Origin: Flavobacteriales bacterium
GTDB lineage: Bacteria > Bacteroidota > Bacteroidia > Flavobacteriales_F > PHOS-HE28
Reading direction: 5' to 3'
NCBI GenBank assembly: GCA_016715995.1
Contig: JADJXF010000013.1
Location: 69,636-133,635, forward strand
Length of the DNA stretch: 64,000 nt
Positions 6,269 through 44,349 of this stretch are shown here, in pieces. The translations under genes were made by a program, and so were the position numbers. Within the stretch, counting starts at the first letter, position 1, and each line of letters starts with the position of its first letter. The notes beneath the pieces were generated by a model. That model was given only the letters and a program-made list of their open reading frames with translations. It made no database searches and had not been told where the DNA came from.

Positions 6269-8056
6269 ATGGAGCACATCCGCAACTTCTGCATCATCGC
6301 CCACATCGACCATGGCAAGAGCACCCTGGCCGACAGGCTGTTGCAGATGACCGGCACCATCGCCGACCGCGACATGCAGGCCCAGGCGCTGGACGACATG
6401 GATTTGGAGCGCGAGCGGGGCATCACCATCAAGAGCAAGGCAATTCAGATGGACTACACCCTCAACGGGCAGAAGTACATCCTGAACCTGATTGACACGC
6501 CCGGCCATGTCGATTTCAGCTACGAGGTGAGCCGCAGCATCGCCGCCTGCGAAGGCGCCCTGCTCATCGTTGACGCCACACAGGGCATACAGGCTCAGAC
6601 CATCAGCAACCTCTACCTCGCGCTGGAGCACGACCTGGAGATCATTCCGATCCTCAATAAAATGGACCTTGCTTCGGCTAATCCGGAGGAGGTGAAGGAC
6701 CAGATCGTGGACCTGCTCGGTTGCAAGCGCGAGGAGATCATGTCCGCAAGCGGCAAGACCGGCCTCGGTGTGGATAAAGTGCTCGAAGCCGTGGTGGAGC
6801 GCATCCCGGCTCCCAAAGGCGACCCGAGCGCGCCGCTTCAGGCGCTCATCTTCGACAGCGTCTTCAATCCCTTCCGCGGCATCATCGCGTACTTCCGGGT
6901 GATGAATGGCACGATTCGCAAGGGCGACCAGGTGAAGTTCTTCAATACCGGAGTGGAATACGCGGCCGATGAAGTGGGCTGCTTGAAGATGGAGATCAGC
7001 CCGCGCCCTGAGGTGAAGGCCGGCGACGTGGGCTACATCATCAGTGGGATCAAGACCGCAAGCGAAGTGAAAGTGGGCGACACCATCACGCACCGCGACC
7101 GCCCCTGCGCCGAATCCATCCACGGCTTCGAGGACGTGAAGCCCATGGTGTGGGCCGGGATCTTCCCGGTGGATACCGACGACTACGAGGAGATGCGCGA
7201 CGCCATGGAGAAGCTGCAGCTCAACGACGCCAGCCTCACATGGACGCCGGAGAGCAGTGCGGCGCTGGGCTTCGGATTCCGCTGCGGATTCCTGGGCCTG
7301 CTGCACATGGAGATCGTACAGGAACGCTTGCAGCGCGAGTTCAACATGAGCGTGATCACCACTGTGCCCAACGTGGGCTATGTGGTGACGAAGACGAATG
7401 GAGAGGTGATCGAGGTGCACAACCCCGCGGACCTGCCCGATGTGATGCACATCGAGAAGATCGAGGAGCCCTACATCAAGGCGCAGGTGATCACCAAGGC
7501 GGAGTACACGGGCTCCATCATGACCTTGTGCATCGAGAAGCGCGGCATGCTCACCGGACAGAACTACCTCACCACCGACCGCGTGGAGTTAACCTTCGAG
7601 CTGCCGCTCGGCGAAGTGGTCTTCGATTTCTACGACAAGCTCAAGAGCATCAGCCGTGGTTACGCGAGCTTCGATTACCATCCCGTGGGCATGAAGGAGA
7701 GCGACCTGATCAAGCTCGATATCCTGCTCAACAGCGAACGCGTGGATGCGCTCAGCGCCCTCATCCACCGCGACCATGCGCACGAGCTGGGCAAGAAGAT
7801 GTGCAGCAAGCTGAAGGAGCTGCTGCCGCGCCAGCAATTCGACATCCCCATCCAGGCCGCCATCGGCGCCAAGATTGTGGCGCGCGAAACCGTGAAGGCC
7901 CTGCGCAAGGATGTTACCGCCAAGTGCTACGGCGGCGACATCAGCCGGAAGCGTAAACTGCTGGAGAAGCAGAAGGAGGGGAAGAAGAAGATGAAGCAGA
8001 TCGGCACTGTGGAAGTGCCGCAGCAGGCGTTCCTGGCGGTGCTGAAGCTCGATTGA
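6269..8056 (+). CDS. lepA: Elongation factor 4 (translational GTPase LepA)
   Basis: 595 aa starting [25 protein letters not shown]. The G-domain motifs and the LepA-specific C-terminal region are present. Confidence 0.95.
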
Positions 8057-33547: not shown

Positions 33548-34825
33548 CTATCCCCGATCCGTAAGCGGTACAACCAGGGAGCGGCGCACGAGCACAGCGC
33601 AACCAAGTCCCAACAAACAGTACCCGGTGAAGAGATAGAAGCCTACTTCCAAGGAAGAGTTGTTGGTGGTGAGCACGTGGATCGAGGTGACGTAGCTCTC
33701 CAGGTCGCCCAGCTGGCTGTTCACCACGCCGTTGAATCCGATGAACGCCATGAAGATGGCCACAACCATTACATCGGCCATGGACCACTTGCCTGCATGA
33801 TAGATGAGGAAGCGGACGAAGCGGCCGCGTGGCTCGATACCGCGGACCAGTGCGATCAGCGAGAGACCCATCTTGCTTGCGGGGATCAGAACGCTGAAAC
33901 TGAAGACCAGAAGGGCGACAACGGAAAGCGCTCCATCGCCATCGGTGAGGAGCACCCGCACCACTTCCAGTATGCTCTTGCTCTGGTGGAAGAGCACCTG
34001 GTCCTTGAAGACCACGGGTTCGCCGATGAGCACGAGGGAGAACTCCGCGATGCTCGCCTCGATGTCAATCATGGGAAGGAGCAGCCCCGATAGTAGCAGG
34101 GCCAATGCCGCGACAATGGTCGCGATCAACGGGATGCGTTGCAGCGGTGGCGAGAAGGCGGCAAGCGTGAAGAGTCCCAGGCTTGCGAGCAGGAGCACCA
34201 ATAAGTACGAGCGCTCCAATCGTTCGAGGTCCAACGAGCGGGCGCGGAGCAGTGCTATGCCGGCTGTCCTGTCCACCGCCTCGTATTTGACAAGCACCTC
34301 GTGGTATGCAGTCCGATCCACGAACCCATCCGTGCGCTCTCCAAGTTCATTCATGCGGTCGAGAATGAAACATTGGATCTCCTGCTTATTGCTCGGGTCG
34401 GCGGCATAGTCCAGCATCAGCTCCACGTAGCGTGGTATCCCGGATCGGATGTCGTCCACATCCACGAGCACGTCCATCAACACGTTCTTCACCAGCCCTC
34501 CGAACCCTTTCTGTTTGTTGCGGTCCTGCATCACCTGCTCCACCTCGGTGAGCAAGCGGTTCATGAGGTCCGTCAGTTGCGTCCTCATCTGCTCGCGGCT
34601 CTCTTCCGTGAGTTCGAATTCATTCACCTTCTTCTCCAGGATGGAGCTGATGATCACCCTCCACTCGGCGGGGTCGAACAGGCCATACGTGATGCTGCCG
34701 AGCTCCATCGCATCGACGCGCAGCACGCGCCGTTGCGTGGCCGATGAATGCACGCGCACCATGCAGAAGAGCACAACAAGGAGAAGTAGCGCCGCAGCGC
34801 TGTTGCGGATGATCGATCGCTGCAT
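33548..34825 (-). CDS. PqiA-like (paraquat-inducible protein A family) integral membrane protein
   Basis: The start is set at MQRSIIRNS within track ORF 33548..34855. There are multiple transmembrane segments, and the C-terminal GKWSMADVMVVAIFMAFIGF matches the PqiA W-S-M-x-D-V-F signature. Confidence 0.5.
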   Translation of the reverse strand: MQRSIIRNSAAALLLLVVLFCMVRVHSSATQRRVLRVDAMELGSITYGLFDPAEWRVIISSILEKKVNEFELTEESREQMRTQLTDLMNRLLTEVEQVMQDRNKQKGFGGLVKNVLMDVLVDVDDIRSGIPRYVELMLDYAADPSNKQEIQCFILDRMNELGERTDGFVDRTAYHEVLVKYEAVDRTAGIALLRARSLDLERLERSYLLVLLLASLGLFTLAAFSPPLQRIPLIATIVAALALLLSGLLLPMIDIEASIAEFSLVLIGEPVVFKDQVLFHQSKSILEVVRVLLTDGDGALSVVALLVFSFSVLIPASKMGLSLIALVRGIEPRGRFVRFLIYHAGKWSMADVMVVAIFMAFIGFNGVVNSQLGDLESYVTSIHVLTTNNSSLEVGFYLFTGYCLLGLGCAVLVRRSLVVPLTDRG

Positions 34826-35136
34826 GTGATGGCCCGGGAGAATGCTGGTCACCATGCAGGCATCGGGCCGCGCCTCGCGCTTCGCATCCAGCGCCTCCGT
34901 GGCGGATCACCCGACCTCACCGGGTTCCGCAGCGGCGGGCTTGCCGACCCAAGGTGTGGAGATTCCGCCCCGCTGCTCACTATGGAGGGGTGGAATCTGT
35001 ACGATCGAAAGCACGCGGCAAGCAGGGGTCAATAGGAGCTTGTCGCCGCCGCTCTAGCGTTTGATCGGGCCCGATGATGCACGGCACACCCTTGGGTTGA
35101 TGACAGGGCATAGAAACCCCAAAAACAACACGCACC

Positions 35137-35451
35137 ATGTCAACCAAAAGCACCATCGCCATCGCACTCACCGCCCTGGCAGCAGGCGCAGCCATCGGCC
35201 TTCTCGTAGCTCCCGCCTCGGGTGCCGAGACGCGCAAGAAACTCGCGAAGAAGGGAAATGACCTCAAGGACCGCCTAGCCGAGATGCTCGAAGAAGGCAG
35301 CGAGCTCATCGACAAGCTGAAAGGCGACGCAAGCGACCTCGCCGGTAAAGCGAAGGATGCTGCCAACACCGCCAAGGATCGCGTGAAGGATGCTGCGAAC
35401 GAAGTGGCTTCCGGCCCCCGCAGTACCGCTAACGGCGGCTATAAGGGCTGA
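35137..35451 (+). CDS. YtxH-domain general-stress protein
   Basis: 104 aa. MSTKSTIAIALTALAAGAAIGLLVAPASGAETRKKL is the canonical YtxH N-terminus, followed by a charged helical tail. Confidence 0.7.
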   Translation: MSTKSTIAIALTALAAGAAIGLLVAPASGAETRKKLAKKGNDLKDRLAEMLEEGSELIDKLKGDASDLAGKAKDAANTAKDRVKDAANEVASGPRSTANGGYKG

Positions 35452-35901
35452 ACGGATCGCGCCCGACCAACTGACAACCCCGGCACCTGGTGATCCAGGA
35501 TGTCGGGGTCGTCGTTCCTGACTGTCGCCAGGGCCACCTCGCAGTGCTTGCTATAGCGTTAGAGCGGTCATCCATCGTCTCACGTGGTTCCACAGGAGCA
35601 CTCACCTAGGCGCGGCAGCATGCGCACCGAACTCCCCGTCTCGGGGCCAATGGGCGGCGGGTCGGGGTGGTCGCTCCACAACAGGTGATTTCACGGTGAT
35701 TCGACCTCGGCGGTGCTTCCGTGCTGCATTGCAAGCTGGGCGCAGCGCTCCGGGGAGCGCAGGATTCCATCACGCGCTGTCGGGCGCTACGGACAGCGAT
35801 CTGCTTGAACTACGAAGGTGAACGGTTGAAGTTCCGACAACGGACAGGCCGAGCACACGAACCGCTCCGGCTATGGCGTCGGTGCTAATCCCCAGATCGT
35901 C

Positions 35902-36285
35902 ATGTCAGACCAGAACCAGAATACCGGCACCGCCCCAGGCGGCACCACGAGCAAGCCTGCTTCTTCGGAGAACAAGGGCACCAACCCGTCCACGGAACAG
36001 CGCGAACAGGCGCCGAAGACCCCGAACCACGAGCAGGGTCGCGAGCACGCACCGAATGTGAACGCCCAGAACGAAGCGGCGGATGCACGGCGCACGACGG
36101 AACAGGCCCATGTGCCCAGCGCCACGGGTAATGCCGCTGAAAAGTCCAACGGCAACGCGAACGATCGCAAGGACAACGTAGCCGGTGATGCCAAGCGCAC
36201 CACGGCCGATGGCCAACACGATTCCAAAAAAGAGAACGAGCCCGCCAAGATCGTGGCCGGCGACGAAACCAGCGGTAAGCGCTGA
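35902..36285 (+). CDS. Hydrophilic, intrinsically disordered (hydrophilin-like) protein
   Basis: 127 aa that is almost devoid of hydrophobic residues and rich in N, G, T, K, E, D and Q. It is preceded by a ~450 bp non-coding gap. Confidence 0.5.
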   Translation: MSDQNQNTGTAPGGTTSKPASSENKGTNPSTEQREQAPKTPNHEQGREHAPNVNAQNEAADARRTTEQAHVPSATGNAAEKSNGNANDRKDNVAGDAKRTTADGQHDSKKENEPAKIVAGDETSGKR

Positions 36286-36337
36286 TGCAACTGTGATCAG
36301 GTTCCGCAAGCGGGCGATTCGCCCGCTTGTGGTTCAC

Positions 36338-36481
36338 GGTCGCGCAAACCCTCAACATCCAGCACGAGCGGCATGAGAACCTTTTTGGTGCGTTGGAGCA
36401 AGGGGCGTCGGCCCATTGAAGTGAACTGGATGATCCTGGTGATCGCGCTTCTTGGCATTGGCCTATTGTTCTTCTATTGAT
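36338..36481 (+). repeat. Direct repeat copy 1 (~140 bp), containing an intact 35-codon ORF
   Basis: tcgcgcaaaccctcaacatccagcacgagcggcatgagaacctttttggtgcgttggagcaagggg...ttcttctattgatc is about 90% identical to the segment at 39514..39652 in the same orientation. Confidence 0.8.
36372..36479 (+). CDS. Putative small single-pass membrane peptide (35 aa) encoded inside repeat copy 1
   Basis: The translation is MRTFLVRWSKGRRPIEVNWMILVIALLGIGLLFFY. It is below the track size cutoff. The second copy of the repeat carries an in-frame TGG-to-TAG change. Confidence 0.3.
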
Positions 36482-36486
36482 CCCGC

Positions 36487-36621
36487 TATGATCCCTTCAA
36501 CCCGTCAGCGTGATATCGCTTCGCTGAAGGAACTCCTGATATCCTGGATTAGGGGAACCAAGAATGACAAGAACGAACTGCACAACATCCACGACCTGCT
36601 TGTGGACAGCCAAAAGGGCTA
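36487..36621 (+). CDS. Possible small ORF (44 aa) immediately after repeat copy 1
   Basis: The translation is MIPSTRQRDIASLKELLISWIRGTKNDKNELHNIHDLLVDSQKG. It sits in an AT-richer stretch and there is no supporting homology I can cite. Confidence 0.15.
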
Positions 36622-36816
36622 GTTGGACCAAGCGCGCATGCGTGGCGTAAACCCATTTCAGGACGAGTCAAGTAGTGGACCGGTAGGTGTGCTTGGTGCG
36701 TGGCTGCGATCCGGGCCGGGGTCCATACCACGGTGAGTGATCCTCCTGGCCTGATCCGGGTGCGATCGTTCACATACGGCATGGCACCCCGATGTGACCA
36801 TGCCAACCTCTAACGG

Positions 36817-39264
36817 ATGGTCCTCGAACCCATGATGAAGCACCGTTACCCGACCATCATAGCCGCCGCCCTGTATCTCGCATCCGCCAACGACGCATTT
36901 ACCACCGAGGCCCCGGGCGACCACCTTGCGGACCACCGTTCCTTGTGGCGTGAGAAGCCGCTGGCCTTCGAGGAGAACAAGGGGCAGGTGCTTACCCTGG
37001 AAGGGGAAGCGGCTCCCTATGTGCGGTATCGGCTTGCACAGGGCAACACGCACATCTTCCTGCTGAATAACGGCATCGCCTTCCAGTTCAACCGGCACCA
37101 TGCGAATGCCCTTGCGGCTGCGGAGCGTATGGATGGAACGGTCTTGAGCGCGGCCGTGATGGAGCCCGGCACTGAACTGCTGGAGACCTACCGCATGGAC
37201 ATGCTGCTGGAAGGGGCCAACCCCCACCCGCGCATCAGCACCGAAGGGCGTAGCCGGGATCGTGTGCACTACAACACCACATCGCAAGCATCAGCGCTGG
37301 CGGTACACGCGTTCACGAAGGTGACCTATCATGAGGTGTGGCCCGGCATCGATTGGGTGGTGTATACCACCGAGAAGGGGATGAAGTACGATCTGGTGGT
37401 ACATCCGGGAGCCGATCCGGGGCGGATCGCCTTGCGTTTCAAGCATCATGACGAATTATACGTGGATGCACAGGGGCGCTTGATCCATGGCAATCCACTG
37501 GGGCGGTTCACGGAGGAGAGGCCCGTGAGTTTCCAGAACGGCAAGGCGATAGCCACCCGTTTCCGGCTCGAAGGGGACCTGTTGCGATTCGACCTGGCCG
37601 CCTATGACAAGGACCAGACCCTGACGATCGATCCGGATCGCATCTGGGCAACGTATTTCGGCGGGGAAGCCTTCGATTCCGTCAACGATATCGGGATATC
37701 CCCCGATGGACGGATCATCTTGAGCGGACAGACCAGCAGTACCACGGGGATCGCCAGCGGGGGCCACCAAAGCACCTACGCAGGCAATAGCGATGGATTC
37801 GTAGCAGCATTCGACGCGGATGGCGCACCGCTGTGGAGGACGTATTTCGGTGGTACGGGGTATGAAAACGTCGTGAGGAACGCCGTATCACTGAACGGTG
37901 AGATCTATTTGGCCGGCCATACGAGCTCGACCGGATGGACGGCATTGAACGGCCACCAGAGCACGTTTGGCGGCGGCACCTATGATGCATTCCTCGTGAA
38001 GTTCGATGCGGACGGTGCGCTCCAGTGGGGCACCTATTACGGGGGCTCGGAACTGGACCAAGCGTACAACTGTACGGTGGATGCGGAAGGCCAGGTCTAC
38101 CTGGTCGGATTCACGGCTTCCACGAGCGCCATAAGCACGGGATGGTACCAGGCGACTTACGGCGGCGGGCTTAGAGATGCCTTCCTGGTAAAATTCGGAC
38201 CGGATGGTGCGCGGCAGTGGGGAACCTACTATGGCGGTGAGGGTGAGGACATGTTCCGTGATCTTGCCGTGGACGAGGATGGTAACATCCACGCTATCGG
38301 ATCCACCTTCTCCACGACCGGCGTTGCTGCGGGTGGCCACCAGAACACCTTCGGTGGAGGTGGCACCCCATGGGACGGATTGGTGGTGAAGTTCACCGCG
38401 AACGGGACCCGGCAATGGGGAACCTATTATGGTGGCTCGGGCAGCGACGAGTTGACCGCCATCGCCCTGGACGGTGGCGATATCTACGTATGCGGTGCCA
38501 CATCGACCGCTACGAATATGGCAGCCAACGGTCAACAGAACGTTTACGGCGGCGGCACCCTCGACGCGCTGCTGATCAAGTTCGCACCGGATGGGACAAG
38601 GACATGGGCCACCTATCTCGGAGGTAGTGCCTTCGAGCTGGGATACAACCTGGCGCTGGACCAATCAGCAAGCCCCCATGCGGTGTATCTCTCCGGATGG
38701 ACAGCCTCCTCCACGGCGATAGCCTCAGACGGTTTCCAGGAGGCATATGGAGGTGGCGTATCGGACGCTTACCTGGCCAAGTACGGCCATGATGGTACCC
38801 GGTTGTGGGCCACCTATTATGGTGGAGCCTTGACCGAACAGGGGGTGAGCTGTGCAGTTGACCCGCAAGGGTATGTGTACCTTGTGGGGAGTACGACAAG
38901 CACCTCGGGGATCGCTGAGAGCGGCTTCCAGACCACCTATGGAGGGGGCACTTATGATGGCTACGTGGCCAAGTTCCATGGTACGGCCACGGCGCTTGCG
39001 GAACACCTTGAACAAGCCGCCCTGGCCGTTCGGCCCAACCCCGCCACCAACGAGCTGTGGGTCGGCACCGGGCTGGAGCACACGCCCCCTGCGCGGTTGG
39101 TGATCCGGGACCTGACCGGGCGCCTGGTGGAGGAACGGTCGCGGGCTGTGCCGTACCACGCGGGAGCGTTCCGAATGGACATCGGCCACCTGGTTCCGGG
39201 CACCTACGTTGTGGAGGTGCAGTTGGAGCAGCGGCGCCTTACCGCCCGGTTCGTGAAGGAGTAG
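36817..39264 (+). CDS. SBBP beta-propeller repeat protein with a T9SS type-A (Por) C-terminal sorting domain
   Basis: 815 aa. The probable true start is MMKHRY at 36832, with a signal peptide. There are about 12 repeats of G-G-x-x-x-D-x-[AG]-x-x-[IV]-x-x-D-x-x-G-x-[IV]-Y-[LV]-x-G-x-T-x-S, which is the SBBP pattern. The C-terminus LAVRPNPATNELWV...GTYVVEVQ...RFVKE matches the Por secretion tail. Confidence 0.8.
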   Translation: MVLEPMMKHRYPTIIAAALYLASANDAFTTEAPGDHLADHRSLWREKPLAFEENKGQVLTLEGEAAPYVRYRLAQGNTHIFLLNNGIAFQFNRHHANALAAAERMDGTVLSAAVMEPGTELLETYRMDMLLEGANPHPRISTEGRSRDRVHYNTTSQASALAVHAFTKVTYHEVWPGIDWVVYTTEKGMKYDLVVHPGADPGRIALRFKHHDELYVDAQGRLIHGNPLGRFTEERPVSFQNGKAIATRFRLEGDLLRFDLAAYDKDQTLTIDPDRIWATYFGGEAFDSVNDIGISPDGRIILSGQTSSTTGIASGGHQSTYAGNSDGFVAAFDADGAPLWRTYFGGTGYENVVRNAVSLNGEIYLAGHTSSTGWTALNGHQSTFGGGTYDAFLVKFDADGALQWGTYYGGSELDQAYNCTVDAEGQVYLVGFTASTSAISTGWYQATYGGGLRDAFLVKFGPDGARQWGTYYGGEGEDMFRDLAVDEDGNIHAIGSTFSTTGVAAGGHQNTFGGGGTPWDGLVVKFTANGTRQWGTYYGGSGSDELTAIALDGGDIYVCGATSTATNMAANGQQNVYGGGTLDALLIKFAPDGTRTWATYLGGSAFELGYNLALDQSASPHAVYLSGWTASSTAIASDGFQEAYGGGVSDAYLAKYGHDGTRLWATYYGGALTEQGVSCAVDPQGYVYLVGSTTSTSGIAESGFQTTYGGGTYDGYVAKFHGTATALAEHLEQAALAVRPNPATNELWVGTGLEHTPPARLVIRDLTGRLVEERSRAVPYHAGAFRMDIGHLVPGTYVVEVQLEQRRLTARFVKE

Positions 39265-39513
39265 CTCGGGATCGATAGGCGCGTGCCCGCGAGGGACCGT
39301 AATGCCTAGAGGGCATCGTGATCGCGCTACGGCCACTACTTCCTACCAGCCCCAATTCGCTCAGTGTGCCACCACGAATCGTGTGCTCATCGGTCCAGCA
39401 GCGCGTTGATCGGGGAAGAACGCCAGCACGTAGCTGCCGTCGGAGAATGGTCCGGTGTCAAGTGATAGATCATGGCTCATCGTCCTGGTCTGGTACACAA
39501 GCCAACCGTTGAT

Positions 39514-39652
39514 CGCGCAAACCTCAACAACCAGCACGAGCGGATGAGAACCTTTTTGGTGCGTTAGAGCAAGGGGCGTCGGTCCATTGAAGTGAACTGG
39601 ATGATCCCGGTGATCGCGATCCTATGCATTGGATTGTTGCTCTTCTATTGAT
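39514..39652 (+). repeat. Direct repeat copy 2 (~140 bp), with the small ORF interrupted by a nonsense codon
   Basis: The copy has the same orientation as copy 1. The ATG at about 39544 is followed by MRTFLVR and then TAG. The rest, SKGRRSIEVNWMIPVIAILCIGLLLFY-stop, is in frame and conserved. Confidence 0.8.
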
Positions 39653-39704
39653 CTCTCTCGCGTCCGATGGCCAACCGGCCTGATTGCCGCTTTTGCATCG
39701 GAAA

Positions 39705-39740
39705 AGAGAAACCCCCGGACATCCGTCCGGGGGTTTCTCT
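39705..39740. terminator. Strong hairpin that could act as a bidirectional intrinsic terminator
   Basis: The hairpin is agagaaacccccggac-atcc-gtccgggggtttctct (16 bp stem). It is followed by tctctttc on the plus strand and by ttttcc on the minus strand. It sits between repeat copy 2 and the convergent minus-strand hydrophilin genes. Confidence 0.5.
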
Positions 39741-39782
39741 TTCAAGTCGTGTGGCTTCAGAACCTATGTCGATCCCTTTGCT

Positions 39783-40136
39783 TCAGATCTTCCGTTGATT
39801 CCTCTGCGCATCATCGCTGGTGCTGCCACGGTCCACGCCATGCTCCTTGTGATCGGCGTTGGGCGCGCTGCGGTCTACATCGTCGTCGTGCTGGCGGCCC
39901 TGGCCATCGAAGCCATCGCTGCCGCTGGTGATGTCCCGTCCGTGATTCGGTACTGCGCTGTCGCTCTTGCGCGCCGGTCCGCGGCGGTCATCATTGGCCT
40001 CGGGGTGCGAGCTGGCGTTCCCGCCTTGGTTGACTGAGCGCGTGGATCCCATTTCTGGCGTGTTCGTGGTGGCGCCTTTGTTGGCCTTGTCCGTCCTCTT
40101 GTCCGCGGATGGATCAGGGAGATTCTTGTTCGTCAT
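39783..40136 (-). CDS. Hydrophilic disordered protein (hydrophilin-like), distal member of a pair
   Basis: The start is set at MTNKNLPDPSADKRTDKANKGATT within track ORF 39783..40298. Its composition is like that of the 35902..36285 product. It begins 4 nt after the stop of the upstream hydrophilic ORF in another frame. Confidence 0.45.
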   Translation of the reverse strand: MTNKNLPDPSADKRTDKANKGATTNTPEMGSTRSVNQGGNASSHPEANDDRRGPARKSDSAVPNHGRDITSGSDGFDGQGRQHDDDVDRSAPNADHKEHGVDRGSTSDDAQRNQRKI

Positions 40137-40140
40137 GGTG

Positions 40141-40338
40141 CTATTTGTTCTTGGGGTTCTTGATGTCGCCCGTGCTCTTCTTATTCGCCTCGGCCTTGGT
40201 GGCATCAGCGGAACGCTCATCCTTGGAGTTTCCGCTCCGTTTGTTGTCCGGGCCATTGCTCGCGTTCTTCCCGCTCTTGGCTGTGGCAGTGCCGCCATCC
40301 GCTTTCTTGGTGCTGTCGTCCTTCTTCATGGTGTTCAT
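40141..40338 (-). CDS. Hydrophilic disordered protein (65 aa), proximal member of the pair
   Basis: This is the in-frame tail of track ORF 40141..40479, reading MNTMKKDDSTKKADGGTATAKSGKNASNGPDNKRSGNSKDERSADATKAEANKKSTGDIKNPKNK. It may be one gene with the downstream ORF, split by a frameshift. Confidence 0.4.
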   Translation of the reverse strand: MNTMKKDDSTKKADGGTATAKSGKNASNGPDNKRSGNSKDERSADATKAEANKKSTGDIKNPKNK

Positions 40339-40568
40339 GTTGTTGGGGTTTAAGAGTTCACCGGATTCCGGCAAGTGCTGCGCCGCGCTGCTCGCGCGGT
40401 GCGATTCATACCAGCACCAGCGCCAAGAGGCGCGTAAACGTTGGAGAGCATGCGTCCAGACCTGATCATCCCCGTGCATTCAACCCCGATCGGACACGCG
40501 CGACGAGGAACCACATGCCCCAATCGCGCAGGACCTGCCCCGGTCGCGATGCTATCACACCTAAGCAA

Positions 40569-42617
40569 TCACCGGTTGGGCGATCCGTCGGGTCTCGCCT
40601 CGGCCACGATGGTGTGCAGATCGGCGGCAGCGATGGGTTTCACCAGGTGGTGATCGAAGCCCGCTTCGCTGCTCCGTATGCGGTCTTCCGCCTGTCCCCA
40701 TCCGCTCAGCGCCACCAACGTTGCAGAGGCGCCCCAGGTTGTCTCCCGCATCCGCGTGCAGGCGTTATATCCGTCCATCACAGGCATGCCCAGGTCCATG
40801 AGCACGACGTTGGGCAGCAGTTCATCTCCTTCCTCCAGCGCTTGCATGCCGTTGTGCGCCACGCGCACCTCATGGCCGAAGCGGCTCAGCAACATGGCCA
40901 TCATGTTGGCGGCGTCCTCGTTGTCGTCCACGATCAAGATGCGCAAGGGGGCCTGCTTGGCCTTCTGGTCTTCTTGCAGCGTGGAGGCTGTTGCCGGCGC
41001 TTCGCGTGGTGGGGCCAGCGGCAGGGTCACCATGAAACTGCTGCCTTTGCCAAGCCCATCCGAGCGCGCTTCGATCCGGCCGCCGTGCATGCCCACAAGG
41101 TGCTTCACGATGTTAAGGCCGATGCCCAGGCCGCCTTGCACGCGATCGTTGGCGCGCTCCACCTGTGCGAACATGTCGAAGACCTTCACGAGCTGATCGG
41201 GCGCAATGCCGATGCCGTTATCCTCGACCGCGATGCGGACTTCGTGCGCGTCCACCACGGTGCGCACGGTGATGATCCCACCGCGATCGGTGTATTTCGC
41301 GGCGTTGTTCAACAGGTTGGCGAAGACCTGCGTCAGCCGCATGATATCCCCTTCCACCCGGATGGGTGCGTCAGCGAACTCCTGCACCAGGTCGTGGTCC
41401 TGCCGTTCGATCAGCGGGCGGCTGGTCTCCACCGCTTGGTCCAGCGCATCGCGCAGGTCCACCTGTGCCAGCTGCAGATCAACGGTGCCGCGCGAGATGC
41501 GGCTGAGGTCCATCAGTTCATCGATCAGCCGCACCATCTGGTCAAGCTGCCGTTTCATCATGCCGTGCGCCTGGTCCCAGGTGGCCTTGTCCTGTTCGGC
41601 GAGCGAGAGCAGCTCGAGTCCGTTGCGCAAGGGTGCGAGCGGATTGCGCAGCTCGTGCGCGAGCGTGGCCAGGAACTCGCTCTTGCGGCGGTCGGCCTGA
41701 TGCAGCGATTCCTGCGCCTCCTTCAAGGTGCTGATGTCATAGAAATAGCACACCACGCCGAATTCGCCATCGGGCAGGGTGATGCGCTCGATCCGCCAAT
41801 CGTATGACTCCCTTGCGTTGATGTCGCGACGTTGTTCGTTGGTGTCAGGGCTGGAGAAGGGTGTTCCGGTGAGGAGGGTATCGCGGAAGTGCGCGATCAC
41901 CTCGCTCGCGAAGGGGTCGGCCCAGAGCACGTGAATGGCTTCCGCGAAGTCACGACCGATCAAGGGGTTCACATGGGCGAAAACGGCCCGCGCCGCTGCA
42001 TTCACCTGCTGGATGCGCGACCGTGCATCAACCACATAGATGCCGAACGGGGCGTTCTCGATCAGGCTGAAGAAGGTCGCGTGGTTGCGGCGCAGAAGGT
42101 CCTGCGCCAGCTCGCGCTCGTTGATCACCTCGGTCAATCGCCGGTTCAGGCGATCGGCCACATCGGTGAGCTCGTGCTGCTGCACCGAGCTGATCAGCAG
42201 GGCCTCGTTGATGGCGGAGCTCATCCTACGGAACGCATCGGTCTCCGTGACCTGGATCATGAGGCCGCTGAGGCGCGCATGCCCGGCATCGATGGGCCAG
42301 CAGGTGAAGGCCCCGTAGTACGTGTTCGCTTCATCGCCTTCCACGAACACATGGGCTTCGCCCTCGCCCGTGCGCAGCACGCGGTCGAGCAGAGCGATGG
42401 AACGGAGGCTCTGCGGGAAGAGATCCTCGAAGGGCCGGCCGATCAGCTGTTCTTCGCTCTTGCCGAGCAAGGCGCAGAAGGCCGGGTTGATGGACCAAAC
42501 CAAATGATCCGGGCCTTCCACTTGTGCCATGGGTAAGGGCGCATTCTCCATGACCGCCTGGAGCACGCTTTGTTCGAGCGCCTGCTTGCCAGTGCCATTG
42601 GGTGCTTCCGTGCTCAT
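40569..42617 (-). CDS. Hybrid sensor histidine kinase: PAS domains, HisKA, HATPase_c and a C-terminal receiver domain
   Basis: 682 aa. The H-box reads FLATLAHELRNPLAP. The N/G boxes read LNNAAKYT...GGLGIGLNIVKHLVGMHGG. The receiver reads LRILIVDDNEDAANMM...VVLMDLGMPVMDG. Confidence 0.85.
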   Translation of the reverse strand: MSTEAPNGTGKQALEQSVLQAVMENAPLPMAQVEGPDHLVWSINPAFCALLGKSEEQLIGRPFEDLFPQSLRSIALLDRVLRTGEGEAHVFVEGDEANTYYGAFTCWPIDAGHARLSGLMIQVTETDAFRRMSSAINEALLISSVQQHELTDVADRLNRRLTEVINERELAQDLLRRNHATFFSLIENAPFGIYVVDARSRIQQVNAAARAVFAHVNPLIGRDFAEAIHVLWADPFASEVIAHFRDTLLTGTPFSSPDTNEQRRDINARESYDWRIERITLPDGEFGVVCYFYDISTLKEAQESLHQADRRKSEFLATLAHELRNPLAPLRNGLELLSLAEQDKATWDQAHGMMKRQLDQMVRLIDELMDLSRISRGTVDLQLAQVDLRDALDQAVETSRPLIERQDHDLVQEFADAPIRVEGDIMRLTQVFANLLNNAAKYTDRGGIITVRTVVDAHEVRIAVEDNGIGIAPDQLVKVFDMFAQVERANDRVQGGLGIGLNIVKHLVGMHGGRIEARSDGLGKGSSFMVTLPLAPPREAPATASTLQEDQKAKQAPLRILIVDDNEDAANMMAMLLSRFGHEVRVAHNGMQALEEGDELLPNVVLMDLGMPVMDGYNACTRMRETTWGASATLVALSGWGQAEDRIRSSEAGFDHHLVKPIAAADLHTIVAEARPDGSPNR

Positions 42618-42621
42618 GGCT

Positions 42622-43416
42622 TCAGTCCAGGGCCGAACGCACCGGAATACCGGTGGTCAATGCGCCCAAGCCCTCGAGCCCACCCGTCTTCAGCGCGATA
42701 CCCTGGGCGGTGACGTCGTATTCGCGGATGACCTTGCTGTGATCGCCGCCACGCATCTTCGACACCATGAGGATCTTGCGCAGCGCACCGTCGATCTCCA
42801 CATAGCGAAGGCGGATGATGTCGTCGGTGAGGAAGGAGATGCTGTAGTTGCTCGCTGGCGGCTTCACGAAGGATTCCTCCAGCATCAATGTGCTCATGAT
42901 GGTAACGCCATGGCCGGTGAGCGCCACGAACATGCGGTAGAGCGACTCTTCGAAATCCTCCCGGAAATCGGGCGCGAGCGCGCGCTCGAAACCGGCGAGC
43001 GAGTCGATCACCAAGCGCTTCGCGCCCACGCGCCTCACGGCTTTCATGATCTCGAAGAGCGCCTCGTCCACCGTCAGGTCCAAGGGCCGCAGGTACAGGA
43101 TCTCGAGCTTGCCGTTCGTGCGCGAGGTGTCCAGGTCCAGTCCGAAGGTGTTCGCGCGGGAGGCGTATTCAGCGGGCCGCTCCTCGAACACGGCGATGAT
43201 GGCCGCTTCGCCTTGTCGCAGGCCCTCAGCGATGAACTGGGTGCAGAGGATCGACTTTCCGGTGCCGCTCGCGCCGGCCACAAGGATGCTGTCGCCCTCC
43301 GGGACGTCGGCCGCCTGGATTCGCCGAAACCCTTGTCCCGCAAGCCTCTTCGCGTGATTCGCACACTGCCCGCACATCCCCGGCACCGGATCCGTGAATG
43401 CGGGGCCGCCACCCAT
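42622..43416 (-). CDS. Single-domain KaiC-like RecA-superfamily ATPase
   Basis: The start is set at MGGGPAF within track ORF 42622..43686; an alternative start is MCGQ at 43377. The Walker A motif is ILVAGASGTGKSILCTQF. The KaiC-domain layout is present (FEERPAEY...GVTIMSTLMLEESF...LRYVEIDGALRKILMVSKMRGGDH). Its stop is 4 nt upstream of the kinase start. Confidence 0.7.
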   Translation of the reverse strand: MGGGPAFTDPVPGMCGQCANHAKRLAGQGFRRIQAADVPEGDSILVAGASGTGKSILCTQFIAEGLRQGEAAIIAVFEERPAEYASRANTFGLDLDTSRTNGKLEILYLRPLDLTVDEALFEIMKAVRRVGAKRLVIDSLAGFERALAPDFREDFEESLYRMFVALTGHGVTIMSTLMLEESFVKPPASNYSISFLTDDIIRLRYVEIDGALRKILMVSKMRGGDHSKVIREYDVTAQGIALKTGGLEGLGALTTGIPVRSALD

Positions 43417-43452
43417 TCCGTTCGACACGGACAACCCTAAAACCACCACATC

Positions 43453-44349
43453 ATGAGCACTCCAACCTGTCCCCGGCGTTTCGCGAAGCAGGCGCGCCCG
43501 ATGATTCTGGCGCTCGCTGCCGCATTCATGCTCGCTGCTTGCGAGAGCGGCCCCTCTGAGGGCGAACTGGCCGCGCGTGCTGAAACCGAGAAGCTGAAGG
43601 ACCAGCTTCAGAGCCGCGATTCCCTCATCGGTGAGATGTCGGTGTCGTTCGATGAGATAGAGAAGAGCATCGCGATGATGGACCATCGCGAGATGATCCT
43701 GGGAGAGATCACGACCGGGGAGATGGACATCGACAAGCGCAAGAAGGTCGTTCGGGACCTTCAGCTCATGAACGGCTTGATGCAGGAGAGCCGCGACCGC
43801 ATCGCCGAGCTCACAAAGCGACTGGATAGGAGCAAGATCGAGGCGAGCGGACTGCGCAAGAAGCTGAAGGAGCTGGACGCGATGCTCGCTTCGCGCGATT
43901 CCTCAATCTCGATCATGAAGGATGGATTGTTGGCAAAGGACTTCCAGATCGAACAGGTGAACACGCAGCTTACAGCGATGGAGCTTGAAGTGGCCAAGCG
44001 CGAAGCCTTCATTGAGCAGCAGACCAACGAGATGAACGCGGCATGGTACGTGGTGGGGACGAGCAAGGAGCTCGAGGAGCGCGGTGTGGTGACCCGGACG
44101 GGCGGCATCATCGGCATTGGCAAGACCGCGCATATGAGCGGCGAGGTCCAACAAGGAGAATTCAAGCAAGTGGATGCGCGCCAAGTGACCAGGGTGCCCC
44201 TTAGCGCGAAGAAGGCGCGGTTGGTGAGCGAGCATCCCAAGGACAGCTACGCCATGGTGGAGGAAGGGGATCTGTTCGCCTATCTGGAGATCAAGGATCC
44301 GGCTTCGTTCTGGAAGTTGAGCCGATACATGGTGGTCGAGGTGAAGTGA
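43453..44349 (+). CDS. Coiled-coil lipoprotein (hypothetical)
   Basis: 298 aa with lipobox MLAAC. The probable true start is MILALAAAF at 43501. Long heptad-like charged helices are followed by a small C-terminal globular region. Confidence 0.45.
   Translation: MSTPTCPRRFAKQARPMILALAAAFMLAACESGPSEGELAARAETEKLKDQLQSRDSLIGEMSVSFDEIEKSIAMMDHREMILGEITTGEMDIDKRKKVVRDLQLMNGLMQESRDRIAELTKRLDRSKIEASGLRKKLKELDAMLASRDSSISIMKDGLLAKDFQIEQVNTQLTAMELEVAKREAFIEQQTNEMNAAWYVVGTSKELEERGVVTRTGGIIGIGKTAHMSGEVQQGEFKQVDARQVTRVPLSAKKARLVSEHPKDSYAMVEEGDLFAYLEIKDPASFWKLSRYMVVEVK

What the first reader, a model, noticed from the sequence alone, without database searches (positions are those of the whole stretch)
35452..40500. 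AT-richer stress and secretion island in which two ~140 bp direct repeats bracket a T9SS type-A SBBP cargo gene
Copy 1 of the repeat lies at about 36338..36481 and copy 2 at about 39514..39652. They are about 90% identical and in the same orientation, and they flank a ~3 kb segment carrying one small ORF and the 815-aa SBBP/Por-tail protein. The region also contains genes for hydrophilic disordered proteins in inverted orientation on each side, a ~450 bp non-coding gap (35452..35901) and a strong bidirectional terminator hairpin (39705..39740). The GC content is visibly lower than in the surrounding genes. An intact small gene in one repeat copy and a nonsense-disrupted partial copy in the other is the classic scar of site-specific integration into the 3' end of a small gene, but no integrase remains. 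Alternatively the repeats are recombination sites that allow cassette exchange of secreted cargo.
Basis: seen in the sequence. Interest (0 to 1): 0.65.

Follow-up and report, generated by a model that had tools for sequence, protein, structure and literature searches.

The report
Duplicated small gene flanks inserted gene
The two 140-bp repeats are two copies of a complete 35-codon membrane-protein gene lying on either side of a 3.2-kb patchwork of DNA (a secreted-protein gene plus two gene fragments). This one bacterial lineage gained the patchwork by ordinary recombination, not through a mobile element, so it is a cleanly resolved but ordinary rearrangement.

Summary
The direct repeat is real: 36338-36484 and 39513-39655, 91% identical, only two copies in the window. 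It is not an att scar. Each copy is a whole small gene, made of a 35-nt A/C-rich leader plus a 35-codon ORF (MRTFLVRWSKGRRPIEVNWMILVIALLGIGLLFFY). The ORF belongs to an unnamed small membrane-protein family. The family occurs as a single copy at the same position of a conserved stress-gene cluster (YtxH, hydrophilins, +/-DUF892) in related uncultured Flavobacteriales, and dN/dS is 0.22-0.76.

The nearest relatives (L059/L060/L061, 86-87% nt identity) show the empty site: YtxH, hydrophilin, one small ORF, terminator, then the convergent hydrophilin genes, with no SBBP gene. The window therefore carries a lineage-specific insertion of about 3.2 kb.

The insert is a mosaic: a 5' fragment of a DUF2383 gene, the DUF7948-SBBP-CTD gene, and the 3' (T9SS CTD) fragment of another cargo gene on the opposite strand. 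That fragment joins copy 2 across about 20 nt of imperfect microhomology. The insert has no integrase, no terminal inverted repeats and no target-site duplication, and the repeat core has no match in viral contigs.

Copy 2 is full length with one TGG->TAG change. Copy 1 has P22L at a near-invariant proline. GC is only marginally low. Verdict: an ordinary recombination-generated duplication and insertion. The small-protein family is the only new item.

The parts
35137..35451 (+). YtxH-like stress protein gene (104 aa), left anchor of the conserved cluster
   Evidence: Pfam PF12732, E = 4e-17. It is 76-97% identical in L001, L003, L004 and L006.
35452..35901 (+). Non-coding spacer. It holds the YtxH terminator hairpin (35478-35508) and a conserved block upstream of the hydrophilin gene (from about 35815, core CGGTTGAAGTTCCGA at 35823-35837).
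   Evidence: 87% identical to L059 with 3 gap columns. The six-species alignment shows a conserved hairpin with compensatory changes and a conserved 3' block. MFE z = -1.56, not significant.
35902..36285 (+). Hydrophilic low-complexity protein gene (127 aa), followed by its terminator hairpin at 36303-36333
   Evidence: No Pfam or NCBIfam hit. Orthologues are syntenic in L001, L006, L034, L058 and L059. The hairpin folds at -27.8 kcal/mol, z = -5.
36338..36484 (+). Repeat copy 1: 35-nt A/C-rich leader (36338-36372) plus the 35-codon small membrane-protein ORF (36373-36480). This copy is collinear with the relatives' left flank. It has P22L at a near-invariant proline.
   Evidence: Its upstream flank and the 26 nt after its stop codon match L059 (p = 0.001). 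Family HMM E = 9e-21. Substitutions polarised.
36485..36506 (+). 3' flank of the small gene that is still collinear with the single-copy relatives. The left junction of the insert follows at 36506/36507.
   Evidence: The blastn HSP window 35115-36506 = L059 6478-7872 ends here. The flank is 73% identical to L059.
36507..39512 (+). Lineage-specific mosaic insert, absent from all relatives examined
   Evidence: Empty site in L059, L060, L061 and L058. No TIR or TSD.
36557..36622 (+). 5' fragment (about 24 codons) of a DUF2383/PA2169-type stress gene, ended by TAC->TAG. It explains the apparent 56-aa ORF at 36452-36622.
   Evidence: NDKNELHNIHDLLVDSQKG* is 84% identical to the N-terminus of L058's DUF2383 protein. 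DNA identity is 87% to L058 15982-16034 and 86% to L064. No full-length DUF2383 gene is in the window.
36643..36670 (+). 28-nt island identical to an intergenic site in L001 (2896-2923). Function unknown.
36817..39264 (+). 815-aa DUF7948 / SBBP beta-propeller protein with signal peptide and a T9SS type-A C-terminal domain
   Evidence: Pfam DUF7948 1e-50 and SBBP 6e-13. Por_Secre_tail scores 21.9 bits, below the 27-bit cutoff, and TIGR04183 scores 21.4 against a cutoff of 23. It is identical to NCBI MAG protein IPM46_08435, and the nearest homologue is 61% identical.
39361..39537 (-). 3' fragment (C-terminal 58 aa, the T9SS sorting domain) of another cargo gene, convergent with SBBP. Its homology overlaps the first ~20 nt of copy 2, forming a microhomology junction.
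   Evidence: 78% nt identity to L064 2574-2744. 61% aa identity to residues 654-709 of L064's 709-aa protein, which has a weak Peptidase_C25 match.
39513..39655 (+). Repeat copy 2: leader (39513-39543) plus a full-length ORF (39544-39651) with TGG->TAG at codon 8 (39565-39567). It keeps the ancestral P22, I26 and C28.
   Evidence: HMM E = 7e-16 for the part after the stop.
39703..39741 (.). Strong hairpin shared by the convergent transcription units (SBBP plus copy 2 on +, hydrophilin operon on -). Homology with relatives resumes here.
   Evidence: -34.7 and -35.5 kcal/mol, z = -6.6 and -7.2. L006 homology resumes at 39694.
39783..40335 (-). Two hydrophilic low-complexity protein genes (116 aa at 39783-40133, about 64 aa at 40141-40335), the right anchor of the conserved cluster
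   Evidence: 84% and 65% aa identity in L006. Present in L058, L059, L061 and L063-L065.
40569..42617 (-). Hybrid PAS histidine kinase / response regulator, the conserved neighbour used to rank relatives
   Evidence: Pfam. Nearest homologue 85% (P0131/L061), then 80% (L006).

Best explanation
The repeats are two paralogous copies of a complete small gene: a 35-nt leader plus a 35-codon ORF for a tail-anchored-type membrane peptide. That gene is normally single copy in a conserved stress-gene cluster of this Flavobacteriales lineage.

In the window's lineage, after its split from the L059/L061 lineage, a ~3.2-kb mosaic segment was joined in just downstream of the small gene by general recombination rather than site-specific recombination. 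The segment consists of a DUF2383 5' fragment, the SBBP T9SS-cargo gene and the 3' fragment of a second cargo gene. The event duplicated the small gene, so one copy now lies on each side.

Shown:
- The single-copy empty site in relatives.
- The mosaic content of the insert.
- The sharp repeat edges.
- A ~20-nt imperfect microhomology at the right junction.
- The absence of mobile-element hallmarks.
- Purifying selection on the small ORF family.

Inferred, the route. My order of preference is:
1. A duplicative, microhomology-mediated template-switch insertion copying nearby loci (about 0.3).
2. A single crossover between the chromosomal small gene and a circular DNA carrying a homologous copy (about 0.2).
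3. Homologous recombination at one end with an illegitimate join at the other, from a closely related donor (about 0.2).

Inferred, the consequences:
- SBBP and copy 2 are probably co-transcribed and end at the shared 39703-39741 hairpin.
- The two copies share identical blocks of 22, 16 and 24 nt, so they could occasionally recombine, delete the SBBP segment and restore the single-copy state.
For: - Repeat confirmed, with only two copies in the window.
- The unit is a whole gene.
- The same 35-aa family (core E-V-[TN]-W-[ML]-[IL]-P-[VL]-I-A) sits at the syntenic position, single copy, in L001, L032, L033, L034, L003, L058, L059-L061 and L062.
- dN/dS is 0.22-0.76 for the 14 pairs that could be computed (one pair gave no dS estimate). 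dS is saturated between distant members while the frame is kept.
- The leader resembles the A/C-rich regions just upstream of the YtxH and hydro64 start codons.
- Empty site: window 35115-36506 = L059 6478-7872 and window 39513-41661 = L059 7706-9854, so L059 7706-7872 is present twice in the window.
- W1-W2 identity is 0.909, against 0.841 and 0.845 to L059. dS is 0.25 against 0.35-0.50, so the duplication is younger than the split.
- The flanks of the two copies are unrelated, p = 0.50 and 0.33.
- Mosaic insert.
- In L064 the DUF2383 and 709-aa genes are neighbours a few kb beyond KaiC. The fragments therefore come from the same chromosomal neighbourhood, and one is inverted.
- A second breakpoint lies in KaiC.
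- No TIR or TSD, no recombinase domain, no viral match.
- The SBBP gene's composition is native-like.
- Precedent: single crossover of circular DNA gave direct duplications of 109-950 bp in E. coli (PMC3240628).
- Precedent: one-sided-homology insertion was proposed for retained orphan genes next to new effector modules (PMC5361080).
Against: - No relative closer than about 86% nt identity exists in any collection searched, so the event cannot be dated tightly or its donor found.
- The 51 nt after copy 2 are only 44% identical to L059's stop-to-terminator spacer, while the 26 nt after copy 1 are 73% identical. No simple model predicts this. It needs either later divergence or a donor-derived flank.
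- The microhomology at the copy-2 junction is inferred from orthologues in other species (14/23 between the two 'parents'), not from the real parental sequences.
- The source is a MAG. Read-level support for the arrangement and for the TAG codon could not be checked.
- Whole-genome copy number of the repeat was not measured.
- Substitutions between the copies cluster in the 3' part (3 in the first 66 nt, 8 in the last 42 nt, p = 0.02). This could mean partial gene conversion, which would blur the dating.
Confidence: 0.7

Rival explanations
1. Scar of a site-specific integration. An integrase-bearing element inserted into the 3' end of the small gene, duplicated the att core, and later lost its integrase.
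For: Direct repeats flank a segment absent from relatives. One copy carries a nonsense codon.
Against: - The repeat spans the complete gene plus its leader, not its 3' end.
- The insert is a mosaic of fragments of chromosomal neighbourhood genes.
- There is no room for a decayed integrase, since SBBP fills 81% of the insert, and no recombinase domains were found.
- No TIR or TSD and no match in viral contigs.
- The right junction lies inside a gene fragment at a microhomology.
Confidence: 0.04
2. The two copies are dedicated recombination sites of a cassette-exchange system that swaps secreted T9SS cargo genes.
For: A T9SS cargo gene and the CTD fragment of a second cargo gene lie between the copies. 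This could be read as traces of successive cargo genes.
Against: - Thirteen related loci carry one copy of the small ORF and eight more syntenic loci carry none. None has any gene bracketed by two copies.
- No recombinase is present.
- The closest SBBP homologues have no small ORF nearby.
- The unit is a protein-coding gene under purifying selection.
Confidence: 0.05
3. A dispersed REP/MITE-like element or a structured small RNA, not a protein gene.
For: The unit is short (~145 nt) and its 5' half is conserved at the nucleotide level between the copies.
Against: - Only two copies in 64 kb and none elsewhere in 65 fetched loci except the syntenic single copy.
- No Rfam match over the repeat.
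- Folding is no better than shuffles, z = +0.7 to +1.1.
- No inverted termini.
- The peptide is conserved in length and motif where DNA similarity is undetectable, and dN/dS < 1.
Confidence: 0.03
4. Assembly artefact. The MAG contig is a chimera of strain variants, and the duplication does not exist on one chromosome.
For: The source is a metagenome-assembled genome. Related MAG loci show frame-breaking errors (L001). The window's species is represented by a single contig in all collections.
Against: A chimeric join normally collapses a repeat into one copy. Here the two copies differ at 9% of positions, each has unique flanks, and 3 kb of unique sequence with an intact 815-codon ORF lies between them.
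Confidence: 0.06
5. The two-copy arrangement with SBBP is ancestral, and the single-copy relatives lost the segment by recombination between the copies.
For: Recombination between direct repeats would give exactly the single-copy state seen in L059.
Against: - The two window copies share 12 states that differ from L059. They are closer to each other (0.909) than to L059 (0.84), which needs extra gene conversion under this model.
- All more distant relatives (L058, L034, L001, L003, L062) also have one copy and no SBBP.
- The insert contains broken genes that are intact elsewhere in relatives.
Confidence: 0.07

Closest known systems
Direct duplications made by single-crossover (Campbell-type) integration of circular DNA carrying a short chromosomal homology
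   Same: An insert flanked by direct repeats of a short homologous segment, with a single-copy 'empty' site in relatives and no need for a dedicated recombinase. Duplications of 109-950 bp were observed experimentally (PMC3240628).
   Different: No circular donor is known. The copies differ by 9%. The insert is a mosaic of chromosomal gene fragments rather than plasmid DNA. The 3' flank is clearly duplicated only on one side.
Homology-facilitated illegitimate recombination, and the 'orphan gene' arrays it is proposed to leave in T6SS/Rhs loci
   Same: New secreted-protein DNA is added next to a conserved anchor, the ancestral gene is kept, and junctions lie at short or no homology (PMC5361080).
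   Different: There the retained genes are immunity genes with a clear selective rationale, and arrays recur in many strains. Here the event is unique, and the duplicated gene is a small stress-cluster membrane peptide unrelated to the cargo.
Integrase-mediated genomic islands in the 3' ends of tRNA, tmRNA or small protein genes
   Same: Direct repeats flank DNA that relatives lack, and one copy of the target is damaged.
   Different: The whole gene plus leader is repeated rather than a 3' end. There is no integrase, no coherent element and no att core shared with any mobile element.
Small hydrophobic bacterial proteins (stress-regulon membrane peptides, type I toxins)
   Same: 35 aa, a cationic N-terminal half (mean hydropathy -0.66) and a single hydrophobic C-terminal helix (+2.53). 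It is encoded among stress-type genes (YtxH, DUF892, hydrophilins).
   Different: No match to any Pfam or NCBIfam model. No antisense RNA or toxin evidence. The only Rfam hit nearby, ohsC (E = 0.37, below threshold), lies on the terminator and not on the gene.

Membership tests
Integrase-mediated integrative element (attL/attR scar) | A tyrosine or serine recombinase gene, or its remnant, inside the inserted DNA next to one att site | tested here: not met
   The insert 36507-39512 is 81% SBBP gene. SBBP, the 56-aa ORF and the CTD fragment have no recombinase domain. The remaining spacers match a DUF2383 fragment and a cargo-gene CTD fragment.
Integrase-mediated integrative element (attL/attR scar) | The repeat corresponds to the 3' part of the target gene, restored by the element | tested here: not met
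   The repeat starts 35 nt upstream of the ATG and ends 4 nt after the stop in both copies.
Integrase-mediated integrative element (attL/attR scar) | The inserted DNA is a coherent element found elsewhere (attP form or other genomes) | tested here: not met
   The repeat core is absent from viral contigs and from JGI metagenome contigs. The SBBP protein is known from one contig only. Homologues of 61% identity or less sit in unrelated contexts.
Dispersed REP / MITE-like repeat | Many copies at unrelated loci | tested here: inconclusive
   Two copies in the 64-kb window. Relatives have none to one copy, always syntenic.
Dispersed REP / MITE-like repeat | Terminal inverted repeats or a stable hairpin | tested here: not met
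   Folding z = +0.7 to +1.1. No inverted termini.
Known structured RNA family (Rfam) | A covariance-model match over the repeat | tested here: not met
   No match over 36338-36484 or 39513-39655 at E <= 1. Only sub-threshold hits on the terminator.
Protein-coding small gene family (unnamed, 35 aa) | ORF length and frame kept across species whose DNA is no longer alignable | tested here: met
   35 codons in the window, L059, L058, L034, L001/L032/L033, P0126 and P0129, and 40-47 in three others. blastn found no DNA match while the HMM gave E = 1e-14 to 1e-22.
Protein-coding small gene family (unnamed, 35 aa) | Purifying selection (dN/dS < 1) | tested here: met
   0.22-0.76 for all 14 pairs that could be computed.
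Protein-coding small gene family (unnamed, 35 aa) | Transcription and translation of the ORF | not testable with these tools
   Needs RNA-seq, ribosome profiling or peptide mass spectrometry.
Recombination-generated duplication flanking an insertion (Campbell-type or template switch) | A single-copy empty site in close relatives, collinear with both flanks | tested here: met
   In L059, L060 and L061, positions L059 7706-7872 align to both copies, with the left and right flanks continuous.
Recombination-generated duplication flanking an insertion (Campbell-type or template switch) | Junctions at microhomology or none, with no transposase footprints | tested here: met
   About 20 nt of imperfect microhomology at the copy-2 junction. 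No TSD or TIR.
Recombination-generated duplication flanking an insertion (Campbell-type or template switch) | Identification of the donor sequences or intermediate | not testable with these tools
DUF2383 and the 709-aa homologue are not in the window.
T9SS type-A cargo protein (the bracketed gene) | N-terminal signal peptide and a C-terminal Por_Secre_tail / TIGR04183 domain | tested here: inconclusive
   A signal-peptide-like N-terminus, MKHRYPTIIAAALYLASA. PF18962 scores 21.9 bits (cutoff 27) and TIGR04183 scores 21.4 (cutoff 23). PF18962 is listed in the precomputed domains for the identical protein P0003.

The most novel reading that the evidence does not exclude
The small gene with its leader may be more than a bystander. 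One reading is that it is a recombination 'landing pad' at which this stress cluster repeatedly gains and loses accessory genes. The slot after it holds DUF892, an FAD oxidoreductase, an SRPBCC protein or SBBP in different relatives. The direct copies would then allow reversible loss of the SBBP cargo gene. A second reading is that the 35-aa peptide is a new stress-regulon membrane effector, and that the two copies, each with one different lesion (P22L, W8stop), are in the middle of divergence or subfunctionalisation.
Probability: 0.1. Interest if true: 0.5.

Novelty: new member of a known kind. Interest (0 to 1): 0.25.

Why it matters
The case shows how a secreted-protein gene can be added to a bacterial chromosome without any mobile element, leaving a duplicated host gene that mimics an att scar. 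That is a useful caution for island-prediction heuristics. As a by-product it defines an unannotated 35-residue membrane-protein family, which gene callers often miss or truncate, inside a conserved stress-gene cluster of uncultured wastewater and soil Flavobacteriales. Neither point changes current understanding. Both are incremental.

Tried and rejected
- Exact-protein look-ups of the window's small ORF, SBBP, YtxH and hydrophilin found nothing on record. The identical SBBP and HK proteins were later seen as NCBI MAG entries.
- A wobble-tolerant pattern of the repeat core found nothing in JGI metagenome contigs or viral contigs.
- blastn of the repeat against the 31 loci held at that point found no DNA match. 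The family was only recognisable at the peptide/HMM level.
- Pfam and NCBIfam gave nothing for the small ORF or the three hydrophilic proteins.
- Rfam gave only sub-threshold hits on the terminator.
- I considered that similarity between the copies might decay gradually into the flanks, as in an older and larger duplication. Local alignment against shuffles rejected this.
- I considered the repeat's leader as a promoter related to the 28-mer at 36643-36670 (GYAAAC...ACGAG). The spacing differs, the 28-mer is single copy, and no support was found.
- I looked for the small ORF or shared flanks next to the closest SBBP homologues and found none.
- I tried to decide which copy is 'resident' from the 3' flanks. 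Copy 1's flank matches L059 and copy 2's does not significantly, but the sequences are too short to discriminate between the mechanistic models.
- The sigma-70-type promoter scan found no sites, as expected for Bacteroidota.


Full report
**1. Observation**

The repeat finder reports 36373-36487 / 39544-39658 (89%) and 36347-36371 / 39519-39543 (92%), offset by a 1-nt indel. Alignment and comparison with relatives refine the unit to 36338-36484 and 39513-39655, with 130/143 identical positions. Core 22- and 24-mers occur exactly twice in the 64-kb window, against zero in shuffles.

The other descriptive items mostly hold:
- The bracketed gene is an 815-aa DUF7948/SBBP protein with a near-threshold T9SS C-terminal domain.
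- Hydrophilic low-complexity ORFs lie on both sides in opposite orientation.
- The 39703-39741 hairpin is very stable on both strands.

Two details do not hold:
- The region's GC (0.605) is only about 1.7 SD below the window's 5-kb mean (0.620 +/- 0.009), and the SBBP gene has typical GC and GC3.
- Copy 2 is not partial. It is a full-length copy with a single TGG->TAG change at codon 8.

**2. What the repeat unit is**

Each copy consists of a 35-nt A/C-rich leader and a 35-codon ORF, MRTFLVRWSKGRRPIEVNWMILVIALLGIGLLFFY in copy 1. The peptide has a cationic N-terminal half and a hydrophobic C-terminal helix.

The organism is a high-GC, uncultured Flavobacteriales lineage known from wastewater and soil MAGs. 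In its relatives an ORF of the same length and layout sits at the same place in the same gene cluster:
- L034: MKALLMHWKQNRRPAEETWLLPVLALTSLFVLWFY
- L001/L032/L033: MKATVMHWMAYRKPTY[LV]TWLLPVVAFISLYVLWLS
- L003: a 40-aa version
- L058: MKAMLVRWGHGHRTMKESWILPVIAILGIGILVFS
- L059/L060/L061: MRTPLMSWSKELQSNEVSWMIPVIAIVCIGVLFFY
- L062: a further member

A profile search of 1.84 billion representative proteins found nine proteins with E <= 0.001, all but one of them 30-47 aa long. No Pfam or NCBIfam model matches.

Between species the DNA is not alignable by blastn, yet the frame, the length and the core E-V-[TN]-W-[ML]-[IL]-P-[VL]-I-A are kept. dN/dS is 0.22-0.76 for the 14 pairs that could be computed, and dS is saturated for distant pairs. 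The leader resembles the A/C-rich stretches immediately upstream of the YtxH and hydro64 start codons. From my own knowledge, that is the usual Shine-Dalgarno-less initiation region of Bacteroidota.

The unit has no Rfam match and folds no better than shuffled sequence. I conclude that the repeat is a small protein-coding gene present twice. It is not an att site, a REP element or a structured RNA.

**3. Comparison of the locus with relatives**

The cluster YtxH -> hydrophilin -> (DUF892) -> small ORF, facing <- hydrophilin <- hydrophilin <- PAS histidine kinase <- KaiC, is conserved.

L059, L060 and L061 are the nearest relatives found anywhere, with 86-87% nt identity and HK 85% aa identity. 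They have exactly the window's order but with one small ORF and no SBBP gene. Window 35115-36506 aligns to L059 6478-7872, and window 39513-41661 aligns to L059 7706-9854. L059 7706-7872 is therefore represented twice in the window.

L058 shows the same single-copy state with DUF892 in front. L006 has DUF892 and no recognisable small ORF. L063-L065 also lack SBBP at this position. The SBBP segment is thus a lineage-specific insertion of about 3.17 kb that is accompanied by a second copy of the small gene.

Several results place the duplication after the split from L059:
- The two window copies are closer to each other (0.909, dS 0.25) than to L059 (0.84, dS 0.35-0.50), and they share 12 states that differ from L059.
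- Beyond the unit the flanks of the two copies are unrelated (p = 0.50 and 0.33), so the edges are recombination junctions rather than decayed homology.

**4. Anatomy of the insert**

Copy 1 keeps the relatives' upstream flank (the hydrophilin terminator at 36303-36333) and 26 nt of their downstream flank (p = 0.001). From 36507 the sequence is new. The insert contains, in order:
- **36557-36622:** the first ~24 codons of a DUF2383/PA2169-type gene. The translation NDKNELHNIHDLLVDSQKG* is 84% identical to L058's protein, DNA identity is 86-87% to L058 and L064, and the fragment is cut off by TAC->TAG.
- **36643-36670:** a 28-nt island identical to an intergenic site in L001.
- **36817-39264:** the SBBP gene. 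Its nearest homologues (61% and 59%) lie in unrelated contexts, and homology stops at the coding region.
- **39361-39537, minus strand:** the last 58 codons, a T9SS sorting domain, of a homologue of L064's 709-aa, weakly Peptidase_C25-like protein (78% nt, 61% aa).

That last homology runs about 20 nt into copy 2. The window reads GATCGCGCAAACCTCAACAACC, L064's gene reads GATCCCCCAGACGCTCAAAATCC, and the small-gene leader in L059 reads GGTCGCGCAAACCCTCAGCATCA. The left edge of copy 2 is therefore a junction at imperfect microhomology.

In L064 the DUF2383 and 709-aa genes are neighbours a few kb beyond KaiC. The fragments therefore stem from the same chromosomal neighbourhood, and one of them is inverted. 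The window's KaiC-like ORF is itself reduced to one domain, with a breakpoint near 43305. The PqiA-like gene occupies different positions in different relatives. The whole neighbourhood is prone to rearrangement.

The insert has no recombinase domain, no terminal inverted repeats and no target-site duplication. Its repeat core has no counterpart in viral or metagenome contigs.

**5. Mechanism**

Shown: an insertion relative to a single-copy ancestral state, duplication of a complete small gene, a mosaic insert built partly from neighbourhood gene fragments, one microhomology junction, and no mobile-element hallmarks.

Inferred: the event was produced by general or illegitimate recombination. 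Three routes fit.
- **A replication-based template switch.** The fork leaves the template after the small gene, copies pieces of nearby loci in either orientation, and returns upstream of the small gene at a microhomology. This best explains the mosaic of local fragments and the duplication in one process.
- **A single crossover between the chromosomal gene and a circular DNA carrying a homologous copy.** There is direct experimental precedent, with duplications of 109-950 bp (PMC3240628).
- **Homologous recombination at one end with an illegitimate join at the other, from a closely related donor.** This is the mechanism proposed for the addition of effector modules with retention of the ancestral gene (PMC5361080).

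I cannot separate these routes. The spacer after copy 2 is only 44% identical to L059's, while the one after copy 1 is 73% identical. The sequences are too short for a firm call.

Inferred consequences:
- No terminator-like site lies between the SBBP stop and copy 2. SBBP and copy 2 are therefore probably co-transcribed and end at the 39703-39741 hairpin, which also serves the convergent hydrophilin operon.
- The copies share identical blocks of 22, 16 and 24 nt. Occasional homologous deletion of the SBBP segment is therefore conceivable.

**6. State of the two copies**

With L059 as outgroup, 6 of the 11 ORF differences are derived in copy 1: S14P, P22L, I26L (two changes), C28G and one synonymous change. 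Only 2 are derived in copy 2, the W8 stop and F33L.

Proline 22 is present in every other family member seen. The 'intact' copy therefore carries a change at the most conserved residue, and the 'broken' copy is otherwise the more conservative one. The cause could be relaxed selection after duplication, a recent inactivation, or a base-call error in the MAG. These tools cannot tell which.

**7. Comparison with known systems, and verdict**

The arrangement mimics an attL/attR scar but fails the defining tests: there is no integrase, the repeat is not a 3' gene portion, and the insert is not a coherent element. It is not a dispersed repeat as far as could be tested. The whole genome was not scanned.

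It belongs with recombination-generated duplications flanking insertions, a known kind of event. The proposed mechanisms, site-specific integration or cassette exchange, are not supported.

The only new item is the unnamed 35-aa membrane-protein family in a conserved stress-gene cluster, and its function is unknown. Interest is low to moderate at 0.25. The finding is a tidy worked example and a caution for island-calling heuristics rather than a surprise.

Noticed in passing
window 36643-36670; L001 2896-2923 (-): A 28-nt stretch (GTGGCGTAAACCCATTTCAGGACGAGTC) in the spacer upstream of SBBP is 100% identical to an intergenic site in L001. Coding regions of the two genomes are only about 80% identical, and the flanks of the 28-mer are unrelated. 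It is single copy in the window. It could be an operator or promoter, or a tiny transferred piece.
   Followed up: partly
window 35452-35901 (block from about 35815; core 35823-35837): The 'non-coding gap' between YtxH and the hydrophilin gene is as conserved against L059 (87%, 3 gap columns) as the flanking genes. It contains the YtxH terminator (35478-35508, with compensatory changes across species) and a ~90-nt block (CGGTTGAAGTTCCGA.CAACGGAC...GAACC) conserved in six species just upstream of the hydrophilin start. This is probably a promoter or 5' UTR element. There is no Rfam match, and the fold z-score is only -1.56.
   Followed up: partly
window 40384-40371 (-); L058 10847-10834; L059 8576-8563; L061 12235-12248: A conserved GGCG[CT][AG]GCACTTGC motif, with GG-N10-GC spacing like a sigma-54 -24/-12 promoter, lies about 40 nt upstream of the small hydrophilin operon in four genomes. 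It was not found with this exact pattern in L006, L063, L064, L062, L001, L034 or L003.
   Followed up: partly
window 42622-43686 (-), breakpoint near 43305: The KaiC-like ORF has only one KaiC domain (residues 119-332) behind an unrelated 128-aa N-terminus. All relatives have a 494-aa two-domain protein. The DksA-like, 141-aa and DUF2383 genes that follow it in relatives are missing from the window. This marks a second rearrangement breakpoint near the insertion.
   Followed up: partly
window 33548-34855 (-); L058 16876-18165; L059 5959-6478: The PqiA-like gene lies between the holin-like gene and YtxH in the window, L001, L003, L004, L006 and L034. It is absent from that position in L059, L061 and L058, and in L058 it sits about 9 kb away after DUF2383. 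The slot after the small ORF also varies: FAD oxidoreductase in L001/L034, an SRPBCC protein in L003, a terminator in L058/L059. The cluster is a rearrangement hot spot.
   Followed up: partly
window 36436-36438 (copy 1 codon 22) and 39565-39567 (copy 2 codon 8): Each copy has one potentially disabling change: P22L at the family's near-invariant proline in the 'intact' copy, and W8->stop in the otherwise more ancestral copy.
   Followed up: yes
L001 6269-7550 and 7879-8578: The FAD-oxidoreductase and DUF892 genes of this MAG are split into several overlapping ORFs (frame breaks). Their counterparts are intact in L032/L033/L034, so these are probably long-read consensus errors. It is a reminder that single-base features in these MAGs, including the TAG in copy 2, need read-level confirmation.
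   Followed up: no
L006 about 7753-7824 (-): L006 has no significant small-ORF family member. After its DUF892 terminator there is a 23-codon ORF (MRSYPIRKRSFTMLCIAAFLFHR) that might be a degenerate remnant.
   Followed up: no
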